From a virus: 64,000 nt of DNA. Shown in pieces: positions 3,297 to 59,378 of this stretch. The notes beneath the pieces are model-generated. The model was not told where the DNA came from, ran no database searches, and saw only the letters and a program-made list of their open reading frames with translations. The stretch's first letter is position 1; each line of letters begins with the position of its first letter. The position numbers and the translations under genes were made by a program. The stretch lies in the IMG/VR virus record IMGVR_UViG_3300023296_001674; one strand, given 5' to 3'.

Positions 3297-5111
3297 ATGA
3301 TTACAAAAACAAACAAACTGCTAATTTGTAAAGCTGGTGAAGTAGTGACTATTCAGGGTTGGGTTCATAGAACACGCGACCATGGCGGACTTACTTTCAT
3401 CGATTTCCGCGATTATGAAGGATTGGTGCAGTGTGTTTTTGACAATTATGGTGGTACGGTTGATTATCATCATTTGCGGGATGAGTCTGTCGTCCGAATG
3501 ACTGGTGCTGTCAGATTGCGACCAACGGGAACGGAAAATCCTAACTTGCGTACAGGCGACATTGAGATTGAAGTTAGTGAGATAGAAATATTGAACGGCG
3601 CGGATGTGTTGCCATTTAAGGTGTTTGCTGAAGAAGAAGAATATACGCCGTCTTTGGAACAACGATTAAAATATCGTTATTTGGACTTGCGTCGTGATGA
3701 AAATCAAAAAATGTTGAAGTTGCGGTCTGATGTTCAGCATTTTATCAGAAACTACATGCATGATCAAGAATTCATAGAAGTTCAAACGCCTACCTTATCG
3801 TCGACGTCACCAGAAGGAGCAAGAGATTTTTTGATTCCGAGCAGAATACACAAAGGTCAAGTATATTCATTAATTCAATCACCACAAATTCAAAAACAAT
3901 TGCTAATGGCGAGCGGTGTAGAAAAATACTATCAATTATGTCGCTGTTGGCGCGATGAGGCGTCACGTTCTGATCGCGCACTTGAATTTACACAGTTGGA
4001 TTTAGAAATTGGATTTGGCACACAAGAAATGGTGTTTAGTTTAGTTGAACCATTGTTGACAGAGATGTTTGAATCATATGGACTAGGATGGAAGTTGAAT
4101 CAATCACCGAGATATGATGATGGCGATCATGGATTTGTGAGAATACCATATAAAGAATCAATTGAAAAATATGGCACGGATAAACCCGATCTACGGGCGA
4201 GTCTTGAAATGACCGATGTGACTATTTTATTCAAGAAGCAAGGGCCGCAATTCATTGTGGATGCTGTTGAATCAGGACAAATAGTTAAAGCAATACATCT
4301 TACGGATGCAGATGGATTAAGTGGTAAATTCTACAAAGATATTGAAAAATATGCTCAAGAGTTGGGTATGCCGGGATTGGGATATGTCAAATCTGGTTTC
4401 AGTGTAGATAATGGCGGAAACCCCGGACCATTGGCTAAAATGATGAATGCTGGACAATTGACGCAGTTAAGATCAATAGTTGGGTTTAATCCTTTATCTA
4501 GTGACACACAGGCAACCTTCCTTATGGTTGGGCATCCTAAAGCAGTAAACGCATGGGGTGCCGATTTACGGGTTGAGTTATCCAAGCGAACCAAAAACTT
4601 TGATGAAGAATCTTATGAGTTTTGTTGGATTGTAGATTTTCCATTTTTTGAAGAAAATGAAGAAACGGGAAAGATTGATTTCTCGCATAATCCATTTAGT
4701 ATGCCAAAAGGTGGCATGGAAGCATTGGAAAATAAAAATCTGTTGGATATTTTAGCTTGTCAGTATGACACGGTTCTGAACGGAATGGAAATTAACAGTG
4801 GTGGCGAACGAAACTATAATCCAGAAATTATGAAAAAAGTTTTTGAAATAGTCGGATATGATGAATCGGTAGTTGAAGAAAAGTTTCCTTCGTTGTGGGG
4901 GGCGATGAAACTTGGTCATCCCCCTTGCGCTGGTTGTGCACCGGGTATAGACCGATTGATACAATTATTGATGTTTAAAGATGGTGGGCATATAAGAGAT
5001 GTGACGGCATTTCCAATAGGTTCAAATGGGATTGATTTATTAATGGGGGCACCATCTGTGCCATCGGATGAACAAATTAAAGAGTTGGGTATTAAATTTC
5101 AGAAGAAATGA
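3297..5111 (+). CDS. aspS: aspartate--tRNA ligase, bacterial type
   Basis: 604 aa; class II motif 2 WRDEASRSDRALEFTQLD (cf. E. coli FRDEDLRADRQPEFTQID) and motif 3 GCAPGIDRLIQLL; N-terminal OB fold; bacterial insertion domain length. Confidence 0.9.
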   Translation: MITKTNKLLICKAGEVVTIQGWVHRTRDHGGLTFIDFRDYEGLVQCVFDNYGGTVDYHHLRDESVVRMTGAVRLRPTGTENPNLRTGDIEIEVSEIEILNGADVLPFKVFAEEEEYTPSLEQRLKYRYLDLRRDENQKMLKLRSDVQHFIRNYMHDQEFIEVQTPTLSSTSPEGARDFLIPSRIHKGQVYSLIQSPQIQKQLLMASGVEKYYQLCRCWRDEASRSDRALEFTQLDLEIGFGTQEMVFSLVEPLLTEMFESYGLGWKLNQSPRYDDGDHGFVRIPYKESIEKYGTDKPDLRASLEMTDVTILFKKQGPQFIVDAVESGQIVKAIHLTDADGLSGKFYKDIEKYAQELGMPGLGYVKSGFSVDNGGNPGPLAKMMNAGQLTQLRSIVGFNPLSSDTQATFLMVGHPKAVNAWGADLRVELSKRTKNFDEESYEFCWIVDFPFFEENEETGKIDFSHNPFSMPKGGMEALENKNLLDILACQYDTVLNGMEINSGGERNYNPEIMKKVFEIVGYDESVVEEKFPSLWGAMKLGHPPCAGCAPGIDRLIQLLMFKDGGHIRDVTAFPIGSNGIDLLMGAPSVPSDEQIKELGIKFQKK

Positions 5112-6102
5112 TGTCCCATTCTGATTCCCATATTTCAACTAGATTATAACCTGCATTTATTATACGCTGGCGTTTTAGTTGAGTTTCTTCGTGTAAATGA
5201 CCCATCGTTTTATGGTTTACTTTGTTTATGATATCTGGGGTATATTTATTTGGATTGCCGTGCCAATAATCGCCCCAGAATTCATATATTGTATTATCTA
5301 TAAGACCATCAACGCAAATTTTACCAGTTTTTATATTATCATTTAACGATATAACGACTTGCCTATTATTATGATTATTTGGCACCGAGATATGATCTAA
5401 CCAACTATCTTGTTTTTTCCATTTTATCTTACATAGTTTACATCCTCCTGATGATGTATCCAGCAACGATTTAGAAGCCGTAAGGATGGGCTGGTTGTGT
5501 TTTTTGCATACCAAGTTAGTTATAGGATAATGAACGCCTGTATGCGCCGCATTTGCCCAATCTAGGTTATTGTATTGTTCCATTCCAAACACTGATATGT
5601 ATCTATTTTTATATTCTTCTAATGTGATTGATTTAAATAATGATAACGATTCGTTTCCACACTTAAGACATCCACCAGTAGCAGATTTTAATAAATCTTT
5701 TGGGCAAGACATTATAGGTTCATTATGGATTTTACATATTAAATTATCAACGGATGATAACGCCCCGTTATATGATGAATCGCACCAATTTAATTTATCG
5801 TGTTTATATATGCCGAATATTTTTATATATTCATTTCGAAATATAATAAGTGATTTTTTATTGGGATTGCAGTTGGATTTATGTTCAGTTATGCATTGGG
5901 GGCAACCACCATTGCCATTATATATCAAATTGTTGGCATGCTGTGAAACTAATTGATTGTGTATTATACATAGTAAATTGTTTATTGGTTTATGTATACT
6001 AATATATTCAGCATTTGACCAATTTAGATTATCAAATTTGTTTTGACCATGCTTTTTAATATAACGTTCTTTTATTGTGTTTAGGTTTATATTTCTTGAC
6101 AT
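5092..6102 (-). CDS. Vsr/DUF559-type homing endonuclease with three tandem Cys-containing repeats
   Basis: C-terminal EFWGDYWHGNP...RQRIINAGYNLVEIWESEW (DUF559/Vsr-like nuclease fold); three ~100-aa N-terminal repeats each with KHNQPI/KIHNEPI + GGCxxC; 3' end overlaps aspS 3' end convergently by 20 nt. Confidence 0.55.
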   Translation of the reverse strand: MSRNINLNTIKERYIKKHGQNKFDNLNWSNAEYISIHKPINNLLCIIHNQLVSQHANNLIYNGNGGCPQCITEHKSNCNPNKKSLIIFRNEYIKIFGIYKHDKLNWCDSSYNGALSSVDNLICKIHNEPIMSCPKDLLKSATGGCLKCGNESLSLFKSITLEEYKNRYISVFGMEQYNNLDWANAAHTGVHYPITNLVCKKHNQPILTASKSLLDTSSGGCKLCKIKWKKQDSWLDHISVPNNHNNRQVVISLNDNIKTGKICVDGLIDNTIYEFWGDYWHGNPNKYTPDIINKVNHKTMGHLHEETQLKRQRIINAGYNLVEIWESEWDIISSEI

Positions 6103-6228
6103 TATTGCTTCCTTGCTTTACTATATAAATAGTTTTGGGGACACCAGTTACTTCCTTGCAACTGCTGTTTAGATGTCCTACCATCTAAACTTACCCTATA
6201 TCTATTTATCAATAAAATTGGAAATCAA

Positions 6229-58203: not shown

Positions 58204-58676
58204 CTGTTAGATGAGTCTTTTGATACACGTGGTGGAATGCCACCGTCTGTAATATCAAAACCCATTTGTTTACCATTCTTTTTTAATGTTCCTGGTTTTA
58301 CATCAACAGTTGAGTTTTGTTTAGTCAATATACCAACACCAGCACTTTCTTCTATATCAGCTTCCATAAATGCATCAAATGATTCTTTATACATTTCATA
58401 TTTTTCATCATATTTGTGTGACTGTTGGGCATTATTTATTGTCGTTTTAGAACTTTCAGAAATTGAAGCAGAACATTCATTCATATTTCTATTACCAGTG
58501 CGTTCACCGCAATCACAACAACATCCTTTACTGCCACACTTAGCACCACATTTGCCACCACATTTACAATCAGGGCCACATCCACACGATTCTATTTTGG
58601 ATTCAGTTATTGTTTTTTTAGAATCAGCAATAATTGGTAATCCAGCATTCATGAGAACTCTATTTAGATCGTCCAT
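58200..58676 (-). CDS. Cys-rich metallothionein-like protein
   Basis: CGCGPDCKCGGKCGAKCGSKGCCCDCG (13 Cys in 27 aa) after a short N-terminal region; convergent with clpS, overlapping by 4 nt. Confidence 0.45.
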   Translation of the reverse strand: MDDLNRVLMNAGLPIIADSKKTITESKIESCGCGPDCKCGGKCGAKCGSKGCCCDCGERTGNRNMNECSASISESSKTTINNAQQSHKYDEKYEMYKESFDAFMEADIEESAGVGILTKQNSTVDVKPGTLKKNGKQMGFDITDGGIPPRVSKDSSNS

Positions 58677-58745
58677 AATATTTTCCTTGACAAATTTGAT
58701 ATTTACTTATATATTATTTATATTTATTGGATTTAGGAGACTGTC

Positions 58746-59378
58746 ATGCAAAAGCAAATCGACTATCAGGAGTTGGCAAACGCCGATGTATCTGCTGGTT
58801 TGTCGCACACCAACGTTCACGATCATTTGAAGCAGAATTCGGTGGAAGTCAATCGTGCATTGACAGTTGATGACAGGGCACCATTTGGTGTTTGTGTGCT
58901 GAATATTACCGGCGAGTTGAATGTGGGCACTGTCGTGCGAACTGCGCACCTTACAGGCGCTTCTAAGGTGGGAATTATTGGTCGCAAAAAGTATGATTCT
59001 AGGGGCGAAGTCGGTTCTTCGAAGTATTTCGACGTTGAGCGTATTTCAGGTCTTAATGATGATGGTTTAACTATCAATCCTGACGTATTTTGGGATTGGA
59101 TTGACACCAATCGATTTAGCCCGATATTTGTTGAGCAAGGTGGTACGTTGTTAAAGGATGTTAATTGGGAGTTACGATGTCGTGATATGCGCATGCTTTC
59201 GCAACGACCATGTTTAGTATTTGGCAACGAGAATCGCGGCATTCAAGATGATATTTTACATGATTCACGTGGAACTATTGTTTCATTAAGCCAATGTGGT
59301 GTTATTCGATCTTATAACGTAGCATCGACGGCGGCAATTGTTATGTATCATTTAACGAGTTATATGGGGTGGTTTTGA
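58746..59378 (+). CDS. SpoU/TrmH-family RNA 2'-O-ribose methyltransferase
   Basis: VGTVVRTAHLTGASKVGIIG and LVFGNENRGIQDDIL (SPOUT motifs). Confidence 0.65.
   Translation: MQKQIDYQELANADVSAGLSHTNVHDHLKQNSVEVNRALTVDDRAPFGVCVLNITGELNVGTVVRTAHLTGASKVGIIGRKKYDSRGEVGSSKYFDVERISGLNDDGLTINPDVFWDWIDTNRFSPIFVEQGGTLLKDVNWELRCRDMRMLSQRPCLVFGNENRGIQDDILHDSRGTIVSLSQCGVIRSYNVASTAAIVMYHLTSYMGWF

What the first reader, a model, noticed from the sequence alone, without database searches (positions are those of the whole stretch)
3297..59378. Translation-augmenting gene set scattered across a viral-type backbone
aspS, tyrS, tilS, rpsU (bS21), tRNA-Cys, the CAU tRNA-like gene, a SpoU/TrmH methyltransferase, a GatB/YqeY protein, two KTSC-domain proteins and clpS are all present. 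None sits in its usual bacterial operon: clpS has no clpA, rpsU is not near dnaG, and the aaRS genes are isolated. Phage-encoded S21 and aaRS genes are known hallmarks of very large phages, and the combination AspRS + YqeY and TilS + CAU tRNA suggests directed remodelling of host decoding. The bacterial-type features of the aaRS genes (S4 domain on TyrRS, insertion domain on AspRS) argue against a eukaryotic-virus origin.
Basis: partly seen in the sequence, partly recalled or inferred. Interest (0 to 1): 0.6.

Follow-up and report, generated by a model that had tools for sequence, protein, structure and literature searches.

The report
Translation genes in a huge phage
This window is part of a roughly 570-kb bacteriophage genome that carries its own aspartyl- and tyrosyl-tRNA synthetases, a tRNA-modifying enzyme, a ribosomal protein and many tRNAs, which is a known habit of "huge phages" seen here in an undescribed lineage.

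Summary
These are AspRS, TyrRS, a short-form TilS, bS21, tRNA-Cys, an 82-nt tRNA(CAU), a SpoU-family methyltransferase, YqeY, two KTSC proteins and ClpS. None sits in a bacterial operon context.

The window's proteins lie on a contig of about 570 kb. About 45 kb of flanks were fetched, giving about 109 kb read in all. It shows no cellular core synteny. It holds a split DnaE fragment, an RFC-like clamp loader, PhoH, a T4-type topoisomerase II, MazG, thymidine kinase, many homing endonucleases and one virion-structural-protein homologue. The best matches are cultured jumbo phages (SCTP-2, Phosso, Atu_ph07, PA5oct, RsoM2USA, CcrBL9).

The translation set is larger than reported. The flanks add about 24 tRNA genes (three of them tRNA-Asp), an L7/L12-like gene and a truncated HisRS-like gene.

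A diverged sister genome (257-kb contig) keeps AspRS, TilS, TyrRS, KTSC, ClpS and SpoU in synteny, with dN/dS of about 0.1-0.27. Codon use is AT-rich (AUA is 35% of Ile codons), which fits TilS plus tRNA(CAU).

Verdict: a real feature, and the huge-phage reading is supported. It is a new member of a known kind. ClpS and KTSC are not shown to act in translation. No capsid, portal or terminase gene was seen in the part of the contig I could read.

The parts
3297..5111 (+). Bacterial-type aspartyl-tRNA synthetase (OB anticodon domain, class II core, GAD insertion)
   Evidence: Pfam. NCBIfam equivalog 637 bits against a cut-off of 443. 80% identical and syntenic in the sister genome, with dN/dS about 0.09.
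8634..8709 (+). tRNA-Cys(GCA), CCA encoded
   Evidence: ARAGORN. Rfam tRNA 51.1 bits.
12457..12768 (+). KTSC-domain protein (function unknown; the source's gene call is 12502-12768)
   Evidence: Pfam KTSC 44.7 bits. Conserved in the sister genome.
13356..13598 (+). Ribosomal protein bS21 with a 14-residue N-terminal extension
   Evidence: Pfam 48.4 bits. TIGR00030 57.3 bits against a cut-off of 28.95, matching residues 15-69.
14179..15204 (+).
   Evidence: Pfam RNA_ligase 101 bits. phrog_24030 at 2.8e-130. 50-55% identical to jumbo phages SCTP-2, RsoM2USA and CcrBL9.
39227..39727 (+). Free-standing YqeY (GatB C-terminal-like) protein
   Evidence: Pfam YqeY 70.2 bits. No NCBIfam match. Absent from the syntenic position in the sister genome.
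40585..40666 (+). 82-nt tRNA with anticodon CAU and an extra variable-arm hairpin (3 bp plus a GAAA loop). A73, A8, no encoded CCA.
   Evidence: ARAGORN. Rfam 38.2 bits with lax filters. The sister copy keeps 44 of 44 base-pair cells paired, with 5 compensatory and 5 one-sided changes.
52156..53103 (+). Short-form tRNA(Ile)-lysidine synthetase TilS (PP-loop SGGVDS)
   Evidence: Pfam ATP_bind_3 149 bits. TIGR02432 162 bits against a cut-off of 93.6. Best solved relative is Aquifex TilS 1WY5, 317 aa, 5e-28. 69% identical and syntenic in the sister genome.
53425..54675 (+). Bacterial-type tyrosyl-tRNA synthetase with a C-terminal S4 domain
   Evidence: Pfam. TIGR00234 324 bits. The HIGS and KMGKT motifs are shared with its nearest homologues. 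58% identical in the sister genome.
56432..56686 (+). Second KTSC-domain protein
   Evidence: Pfam KTSC 51 bits. 75% identical in the sister genome.
57886..58203 (+). ClpS-like N-degron adaptor with no clpA nearby (a proteolysis factor, not a translation factor)
   Evidence: Pfam ClpS 98.9 bits. Below all NCBIfam equivalog cut-offs. Conserved in the sister genome.
58746..59378 (+). SpoU/TrmH-family 2'-O-methyltransferase, substrate not assignable
   Evidence: Pfam SpoU_methylase 54.2 bits. Only sub-threshold RlmB, TrmH and TrmL matches. 76% identical in the sister genome.

Best explanation
The window is a segment of a tailed, T4-superfamily-like huge bacteriophage genome of about 570 kb, from an undescribed lineage that infects a Gram-negative bacterium. 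The host is possibly an alphaproteobacterium.

The phage carries a partial translation toolkit of its own. It comprises at least about 26 tRNA genes in the 109 kb examined, AspRS, TyrRS, TilS, a SpoU-family RNA methyltransferase, bS21, an L7/L12-like protein, YqeY and an RNA ligase.

The most likely mechanism is supply-side augmentation and partial take-over of host decoding during a long infection.
- The phage tRNAs read the A/U-ending codons that dominate its AT-rich genes: Lys-UUU, Thr-UGU, Leu-UAA, Arg-UCU, and tRNA(CAU) converted by TilS to read AUA.
- AspRS (with three tRNA-Asp genes) and TyrRS keep two heavily used amino acids charged.
- bS21, with its N-terminal extension, would replace or supplement host S21 to favour initiation on phage mRNAs.
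- The RNA ligase would repair tRNAs cut by host anticodon nucleases.

Shown here: gene identities, intact motifs, phage context, conservation under purifying selection in a sister genome, and the phage's own AT-rich codon usage together with the anticodons of its tRNAs. Whether these differ from the host's is untested, because the host is unknown. Inferred: every biochemical activity, the host, and the benefit to the phage.
For: **Gene identities.**

**Genome size and independent assemblies.** The contig is 570,750 or 570,549 bp. Logan contigs from two different sequencing runs, one covering each end of the window, are identical to it over 10.7 and 15.3 kb.

**Phage context.**
- Split DnaE, clamp loader, PhoH, topoisomerase II, MazG, thymidine kinase and homing endonucleases.
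- tblastn best hits are jumbo phages for the DnaE fragment, the RNA ligase and the virion structural protein.
- TilS is also annotated in PA5oct-type jumbo phages.
- Strong matches to phage-only families: phrog_2141 at 7e-96, phrog_12204 at 2e-39, phrog_5848 and phrog_899 at 8e-35.

**tRNA complement.**

**Codon usage.** AUA is 35% of Ile codons, AGA is 28% of Arg codons, GC3 is 26%, and Asp is 7.4% of residues.

**Conservation.** The sister genome is colinear, with AspRS 80%, TilS 69%, TyrRS 58%, SpoU 76%, ClpS 59% and KTSC 61-75% identical. dN/dS is 0.09-0.27 with dS saturated. A more distant AspRS (50% identical) also sits in an ORFan-rich, phage-like contig.

**Literature.** Huge phages are reported to carry tRNAs, up to 15 aaRS, tRNA-modification and tRNA-ligation genes, and S21 (with N-terminal extensions) and L7/L12 (PMC7162821).
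Against: - No major capsid protein, portal or terminase was seen. Only about 109 of 570 kb could be read, and the sole structural evidence is one homologue of an annotated virion structural protein.
- Two tail-fibre-like ORFs at window 65791-67227 matched nothing.
- The genome is absent from IMG/VR.
- It shares only 6 of 120 ORFs with the huge phage LR756500.
- The host is unknown, so the codon-mismatch argument is untested.
- The SpoU substrate, YqeY function and KTSC function are unknown.
- ClpS is not a translation factor.
- TilS lacks the E. coli-type C-terminal domain, and its tRNA substrate is not identified.
Confidence: 0.85

Rival explanations
1. The sequence belongs to a non-viral giant extrachromosomal element (a megaplasmid or other large element) that has accumulated phage-derived replication genes, homing endonucleases and translation genes, and does not form virions.
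For: No capsid, portal or terminase was found in the 109 kb read. There are many bacterial-type accessory genes: an ABC transporter cluster, TelA, a cation efflux protein, an OmpA-domain protein and a major-vault-protein homologue.
Against: A virion-structural-protein homologue lies near the DnaE fragment, as it does in Phosso and PA5oct. There are numerous phage-only PHROG families. The replication module is T4-like. No plasmid partition or conjugation genes were seen.
Confidence: 0.07
2. The window is a piece of a bacterial chromosome, for example a reduced symbiont, or a prophage-rich region, so the translation genes are ordinary cellular genes.
For: AspRS, TyrRS and S21 pass bacterial equivalog thresholds. 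The nearest named AspRS relatives are Alphaproteobacteria.
Against: Core operon neighbours are absent (no clpA, dnaG/rpoD or ribosomal operons). Most ORFs have no Pfam family. All six window proteins looked up are singletons at 90% identity. The AspRS is only about 46% identical to any named bacterium. The tRNAs lie in arrays interleaved with homing endonucleases. There was no exact match in 185,579 species-representative genomes.
Confidence: 0.03
3. It is a giant virus of eukaryotes (Nucleocytoviricota), a group that also carries aaRS genes and tRNAs.
For: Large genome, TyrRS and AspRS present, many ORFans, and a major-vault-protein homologue (MVP is mainly eukaryotic).
Against: The AspRS is bacterial-type with a GAD domain and the TyrRS has an S4 domain. 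bS21, the L7/L12 C-terminal domain, TilS, ClpS, DnaE and lipobox lipoproteins are all bacterial features. The best matches are bacteriophages. Genes are dense, without introns, and use bacterial start and stop conventions.
Confidence: 0.02
4. The translation genes are recent, functionally neutral passengers picked up from hosts, perhaps carried by the adjacent homing endonucleases, and are not an adaptive set.
For: Homing-endonuclease genes abut AspRS (5092-6102, minus strand), TyrRS (54672-55016), the tRNA(CAU) (40686-41366, minus strand) and SpoU (59369-59674). YqeY is not conserved in the sister genome.
Against: AspRS, TilS, TyrRS, SpoU, ClpS and KTSC are retained in synteny across genomes whose proteins are 30-85% identical, with dN/dS of 0.09-0.27. 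The AspRS forms its own environmental clade at 46-80% identity, distinct from cellular sequences. That argues for old acquisition and maintenance.
Confidence: 0.1

Closest known systems
Huge phages with translation-interception repertoires (Al-Shayeb et al. 2020, PMC7162821)
   Same: Genome well above 200 kb. Scattered tRNAs, aaRS genes, tRNA-modification and RNA-ligase genes, bS21 with an N-terminal extension, and L7/L12. The proposed role is redirection and augmentation of host translation.
   Different: Not a member of the one deposited huge-phage genome I compared in full. Only 6 of 120 ORFs hit LR756500, and the GC content is 35% against 24%. No CRISPR-Cas or initiation factors were seen in the part read.
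Cultured jumbo myoviruses of the PA5oct / Atu_ph07 / SCTP-2 / Phosso / RaK2-like group
   Same: A split DnaE fragment, with a virion structural protein 5-14 kb from it. HNH-RNA ligase 50-55% identical. TilS annotated in PA5oct-type phages.
   Different: Identities are only 27-40% for the backbone genes. The genome is larger (570 kb against 287-490 kb). No AspRS relative was detected in these genomes: none appears among the AspRS tblastn hits. TyrRS was not searched against the phage collection.
Phage-encoded bS21 (Mizuno et al. 2019, cited in PMC7162821; Chen et al. 2022, PMC9723584)
   Same: A single bS21 gene in a phage genome, outside any ribosomal operon.
   Different: Expression timing and ribosome incorporation were not tested here. 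The host clade is different and unknown.
Microcystis phage MaAM05 aspS
   Same: One of the few bona fide phage records with an annotated bacterial-type AspRS.
   Different: Only 35.7% identical, so probably an independent acquisition.
Giant eukaryotic viruses with aaRS sets (Mimivirus, Klosneuvirus, Tupanvirus; from my own knowledge)
   Same: A virus-encoded partial translation apparatus that includes TyrRS, AspRS and tRNAs.
   Different: Those carry eukaryote-type enzymes and infect protists. Here every component is bacterial-type.

Membership tests
Huge/jumbo tailed phage | Genome longer than 200 kb on a single contig | tested here: met
   The longest contig carrying the window's proteins is 570,750 bp. 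ENA k141_202852 is 570,549 bp.
Huge/jumbo tailed phage | Virion genes: major capsid, portal, large terminase, tail | tested here: inconclusive
   Only one homologue of an annotated virion structural protein was found (phrog_13138, 3e-33). No capsid, portal or terminase was seen in the 109 kb readable. The remaining roughly 460 kb could not be fetched.
Huge/jumbo tailed phage | Phage-type replication and nucleotide-metabolism module, and phage-specific gene families | tested here: met
   Split DnaE, RFC-like clamp loader, topoisomerase II, PhoH, MazG and thymidine kinase, plus several PHROG families of unknown function at E-values of 1e-35 to 1e-96.
Huge/jumbo tailed phage | No cellular core synteny (rRNA, ribosomal operons, clpA, dnaG) | tested here: met
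   None in the window plus about 45 kb of flanks.
Huge-phage clade of LR756500/LR756501 (735-kb genome group) | A substantial shared gene content with a member genome | tested here: not met
   6 of 120 ORFs have tblastn hits in LR756500 at E <= 1e-5.
Bacterial-type AspRS | Class II core, OB anticodon domain and GAD insertion, with a score above the equivalog cut-off | tested here: met
   Pfam domains. NF001750 637 bits against 443 and TIGR00459 528 bits against 374.
Bacterial-type AspRS | Discriminating versus non-discriminating (Asp/Asn) specificity | not tested
   The nearest named relative is annotated as Asp/Asn ligase, but no signature residues were examined.
Bacterial TyrRS | Class I core with HIGH-like and KMSKS-like motifs, a C-terminal S4 domain, and a score above the equivalog cut-off | tested here: met
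   TIGR00234 324 bits against 113.8. S4 domain 29.8 bits. HIGS and KMGKT motifs as in its nearest homologues.
TilS (tRNA-Ile lysidine synthetase) | PP-loop N-terminal domain above the TilS-specific cut-off | tested here: met
   TIGR02432 162 bits against 93.6. The SGGVDS motif is visible in the translation.
TilS (tRNA-Ile lysidine synthetase) | Full-length E. coli-type architecture with the second C-terminal domain | tested here: not met
   NF007942 109 bits against a cut-off of 606. The protein is 315 aa, and its best solved relative is the 317-aa Aquifex enzyme. It is therefore a short-form TilS.
TilS (tRNA-Ile lysidine synthetase) | A cognate tRNA-Ile2(CAU) substrate | tested here: inconclusive
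   There are two CAU tRNAs: a 75-nt one at window -124..-50 and the 82-nt one at 40585-40666. Neither looks like an initiator. Identity rules recalled for E. coli (C4-G69, C29-G41, A73) fit the 75-nt tRNA better, but this was not tested.
Ribosomal protein bS21 | Score above the equivalog cut-off | tested here: met
   TIGR00030 57.3 bits against 28.95.
ClpS adaptor | ClpS fold and family score | tested here: met
   Pfam ClpS 98.9 bits against 23. NCBIfam equivalog cut-offs are not reached. The NDDFTPMEFV pocket motif is visible in the translation.
ClpS adaptor | A partner ClpA encoded alongside | tested here: not met
   No AAA+ Clp ATPase in the 109 kb read. The protein would have to use a host ClpA.
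TrmH/SpoU tRNA methyltransferase | Assignment to a defined subfamily (TrmH, TrmL, TrmJ or RlmB) | tested here: not met
   Only C-terminal, sub-threshold matches of 22-38 bits against cut-offs of 160-227. Family-level membership only.

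The most novel reading that the evidence does not exclude
The phage lineage encodes structurally decorated tRNAs. They have non-class-II anticodons (CAU, 82 nt; GUU, 86 nt) but carry a class-II-like variable-arm hairpin of a short stem (3 bp in both tRNAs of this genome, 2 bp in the sister's CAU copy) capped by a GNRA tetraloop.

Together with the phage's own TilS, aaRS genes and a conserved amber-suppressor tRNA(CUA), these could form a partly host-independent decoding set. 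Such tRNAs might be recognised by phage factors and be invisible to host tRNA-targeting defences.
Probability: 0.15. Interest if true: 0.7.

Novelty: new member of a known kind. Interest (0 to 1): 0.4.

Why it matters
At about 570 kb this would be among the largest phage genomes recorded; the largest published is 735 kb. It appears to represent an unsampled lineage, only distantly tied to PA5oct/Atu_ph07-like jumbo phages.

It adds a conserved AspRS-TyrRS-TilS-bS21 combination, with a large tRNA array, to the catalogue of phage-encoded translation functions. A diverged sister genome shows that the set is maintained by purifying selection.

The general phenomenon is already established, so the finding extends it and does not change the picture.

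Tried and rejected
**Searches for the genome itself**
- Megablast of window 1-25000 against 50,697 phage records gave no match.
- A protein-guided scan of IMG/VR with AspRS gave nothing.
- An exact 60-mer from aspS found nothing in GTDB genomes, JGI metagenome contigs or IMG/VR.
- A degenerate pattern for the 82-nt tRNA found nothing in IMG/VR.

**Test of a huge-phage affiliation**
- The major-vault-protein homologue hit LR756500/1/3 at 40-42% identity.
- I fetched all 462 kb of LR756500 and ran tblastn with all ORFs. Only 6 of 120 matched, so a close relationship is rejected.

**Other dead ends**
- I guessed that the ORFs at window 65791-67227 are tail fibres from their motifs. They had no PHROG or tblastn support.
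- A concatenated query (YqeY plus two neighbours) meant to reach the sister locus returned only one weak hit, which wasted one search. The left-hand half of another concatenated query also failed to find itself.
- A paper search for the SRA run numbers found nothing.
- TyrRS donor lineage: the nearest relatives carry no organism names, so no donor could be named.

**Slip on my side**
- One search contained one sequence not taken from the window. The call failed and was repeated with the true ORFs.

Full report
**1. Observation**

The 64-kb window has about 35% GC and about 95 plausible genes, roughly 80% of them on the + strand. I scanned all ORFs against Pfam as concatenated pseudo-proteins and the key ones against NCBIfam. 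Every gene in the finding is real.
- AspRS, 3297-5111: class II core, OB anticodon domain and GAD insertion. The equivalog score is 637 bits against a cut-off of 443.
- TyrRS, 53425-54675: TIGR00234 324 bits, with an S4 domain. Its HIGS and KMGKT motifs are shared with its nearest homologues.
- TilS, 52156-53103: the TilS-specific N-domain scores 162 bits against 93.6.
- bS21, 13356-13598.
- YqeY, 39227-39727.
- KTSC proteins, 12457-12768 and 56432-56686.
- ClpS, 57886-58203.
- A SpoU-family methyltransferase, 58746-59378.
- tRNA-Cys, 8634-8709.
- An 82-nt tRNA(CAU), 40585-40666. Rfam's default filters missed it, but it scores 38.2 bits against a gathering score of 29 with laxer filters.

The neighbours confirm that none of these sits in its usual bacterial operon.

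**2. What the backbone is**

The window's proteins are singletons at 90% identity. They lie on a contig of 570,750 bp seen in JGI, ENA and Logan data. One ENA assembly gives 570,549 bp. Logan contigs from two different sequencing runs, one covering each end of the window, are identical to it over 10.7 and 15.3 kb, so a chimera is unlikely. The sequence is not in GenBank phages at the nucleotide level, nor in IMG/VR, GTDB genomes or JGI contigs.

I walked about 19.5 kb to the left and 24 kb to the right.

The right flank holds:
- an 1827-aa S8 protease with Ig-like repeats, and MazG;
- a 178-aa DnaE fragment (phrog_11127, 1e-44);
- an RFC-like clamp loader, PhoH and two topoisomerase II subunits;
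- PurS, a Macro-domain protein and a GIY-YIG endonuclease;
- a 260-aa protein matching phrog_13138, "virion structural protein", at 3e-33.

By tblastn the DnaE fragment and the structural protein find the same set of cultured jumbo phages: Phosso, SCTP-2, Atu_ph07, PA5oct, Hallingskeid and RaK2-like phages. In Phosso and PA5oct the two genes also lie 5-11 kb apart, against 14 kb here.

The HNH-RNA ligase at 14179-15204 is 50-55% identical to those of SCTP-2, RsoM2USA and Caulobacter CcrBL9-like jumbo phages.

Several ORFs match phage-only families of unknown function at E-values of 1e-35 to 1e-96.

By contrast, the huge phage LR756500 shares only 6 of 120 ORFs.

I conclude that this is a huge tailed phage of an undescribed lineage, distantly tied to the PA5oct/Atu_ph07-like group. 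The weak point is that capsid, portal and terminase genes were not seen in the 109 kb I could read.

**3. The translation set is larger than reported**

The left flank contains a dense tRNA region interleaved with phrog_23051-type endonuclease genes. Rfam finds 21 tRNAs in L024 and 2 in L022, ARAGORN adds one more in L024 that Rfam misses (tRNA-Arg(UCU)), and the window has two. That gives about 26 tRNAs in 109 kb.
- They include three tRNA-Asp, two tRNA-Ile(GAU), Lys(UUU), Thr(UGU), Leu(UAA), two Arg(UCU), a second tRNA(CAU) of normal length at window -124..-50, and a tRNA(CUA) amber suppressor.
- The left flank also encodes an L7/L12 C-terminal-domain protein and a truncated, 199-aa HisRS-like protein.

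**4. Conservation**

AspRS has an environmental clade of relatives at 80, 63, 60, 58, 55, 50 ... 46% identity. Below that is a plateau of marine and soil Alphaproteobacteria at about 45-46%.
- The 80% relative lies on a 256,814-bp contig that is colinear with the window.
- The 50% relative lies in another ORFan-rich, phage-like contig.
- A second locus of the sister genome keeps the order TilS-TyrRS-HNH-cytidylyltransferase-KTSC-ClpS-SpoU.
- Pairwise dN/dS is 0.09 for AspRS, 0.10 for TilS, 0.21 for TyrRS, 0.08 for SpoU, 0.27 for ClpS and 0.13 for KTSC, with dS saturated. The genes are therefore maintained by selection.
- YqeY is absent from the syntenic position in the sister genome.

**5. Mechanism**

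Codon usage of 82 genes is strongly AT-biased, with GC3 of 26%. AUA is 35% of Ile codons, AGA 28% of Arg, UUA 37% of Leu and AAA 83% of Lys. Asp makes up 7.4% of residues and Tyr 3.6%. The phage tRNAs cover exactly these A/U-ending codons.

TilS would convert a CAU tRNA into the AUA reader. This TilS is the short form: 315 aa, with Aquifex 1WY5 as its best solved relative. TilS is also annotated in PA5oct-type jumbo phages.

AspRS together with three tRNA-Asp genes matches the Asp-rich proteome.

The bS21 has a 14-residue N-terminal extension, a feature noted for huge-phage S21 proteins (PMC7162821).

All of this fits the published model of augmentation and interception of host translation. 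The host and every biochemical activity are inferred.

ClpS is a proteolysis adaptor that would need a host ClpA. KTSC has no known function. The SpoU substrate is unassigned. These should not be counted as translation factors without further evidence.

**6. The 82-nt tRNA(CAU)**

It has a standard 7/5 cloverleaf, a CUCAUAA anticodon loop, A73 and an unusual A8. Its variable arm forms a 3-bp hairpin capped by GAAA. It is the only tRNA here without an encoded CCA.

The sister genome has a copy elsewhere (L014:3308-3389). That copy differs at many stem positions, yet all 44 base-pair cells remain paired, with five compensatory double changes and five one-sided changes. Structures with the partner slid by one to three columns give 27-50% pairing. 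The sister's variable hairpin is capped by GAGA. The tRNA is therefore real and under structural selection.

An 86-nt tRNA(GUU) in the left flank has the same kind of hairpin, 3 bp capped by GCAA.

Class-II-like arms on Met/Ile or Asn anticodons are unusual, by my own knowledge. I could not determine the amino-acid identity of either tRNA.

**7. Comparison and verdict**

The closest known analogues are:
- the huge phages of Al-Shayeb et al. 2020, which show the same phenomenon;
- the PA5oct/Atu_ph07/SCTP-2 jumbo phages, which are related in backbone at 27-55% identity.

The finding is a new member of a known kind. It is of moderate interest for its size, its unsampled lineage, the conserved AspRS/TyrRS/TilS set and the odd tRNAs.

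Noticed in passing
window 30686-33346 (+): An 886-aa homologue of the eukaryotic major vault protein (Pfam MVP_shoulder 79 bits, Vault_3 47.5 bits, weak SPFH). It is 40-42% identical over 94% of its length to ORFs in the huge-phage genomes LR756500 and LR756501/3, and has no PHROG family. Its role in a phage is unknown.
   Followed up: partly
L024:3303-3388 (left flank, about window -16,200): An 86-nt tRNA with anticodon GUU (Asn), U1-A72 and G73, but a class-II-like body and a variable-arm hairpin of 3 bp capped by GCAA. This is the same kind of decoration as on the 82-nt tRNA(CAU). Rfam scores it at 48.6 bits.
   Followed up: partly
L024:7988-8065 (left flank) and sister L020:240-315: A tRNA with anticodon CUA (amber suppressor) is present in this genome and in the sister genome. 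TAG ends only 8 of 96 genes, and read-through would add just 0-14 residues before the next stop.
   Followed up: partly
window 27079-28019 (+): The ABC-transporter ATPase is split by a one-base frameshift near 27225. The Walker A motif GPSGCGKST reads in the downstream frame. This could be a pseudogene, a programmed shift or a shared assembly error.
   Followed up: partly
window 16780-28019: A bacterial-looking cluster: glucosaminidase, TelA, two NMT1-type substrate-binding proteins, OmpA-domain proteins, a VWA lipoprotein, and an ABC permease and ATPase. Its GC is raised (38-42% against about 35%) between 18 and 24 kb, which suggests a more recent acquisition from a host.
   Followed up: no
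window 5092-6102 (-), 40686-41366 (-), 54672-55016 (+), 59369-59674 (+); flanks L024 and L022: Homing-endonuclease-like genes (HNH, a Vsr-like C-terminus, phrog_23051, GIY-YIG) sit directly beside AspRS, the tRNA(CAU), TyrRS and SpoU, and between the tRNA genes. The one after TyrRS is conserved in the sister genome.
   Followed up: partly
sister locus L020:2040-2175: At the position where the window has the 82-nt tRNA(CAU), the sister genome has what looks like a tRNA gene interrupted by an insertion of about 55 nt in the anticodon loop (acceptor GGTTCAT...ATGAACCACCA). Rfam also reports 108-nt and 92-nt tRNA matches at L024:14551-14658 and L024:14798-14889, which ARAGORN missed.
   Followed up: no
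window 34996-36753 (+): A 585-aa protein with an N-terminal FecR domain and four tandem copies of a Pro/Thr-rich unit ([14 protein letters not shown]). It also matches phrog_37870.
   Followed up: no
window 29386-30645 (+): Two adjacent secreted DUF4402 proteins (spore-coat-U/fimbrial-like, 161 bits in total) lie immediately upstream of the vault-protein homologue.
   Followed up: no
sister locus L020:12792-14003 (-): The sister genome carries an IS605 OrfB/TnpB (Cas12f-like) gene inserted between the cytidylyltransferase and KTSC genes. The window has no such gene there.
   Followed up: no
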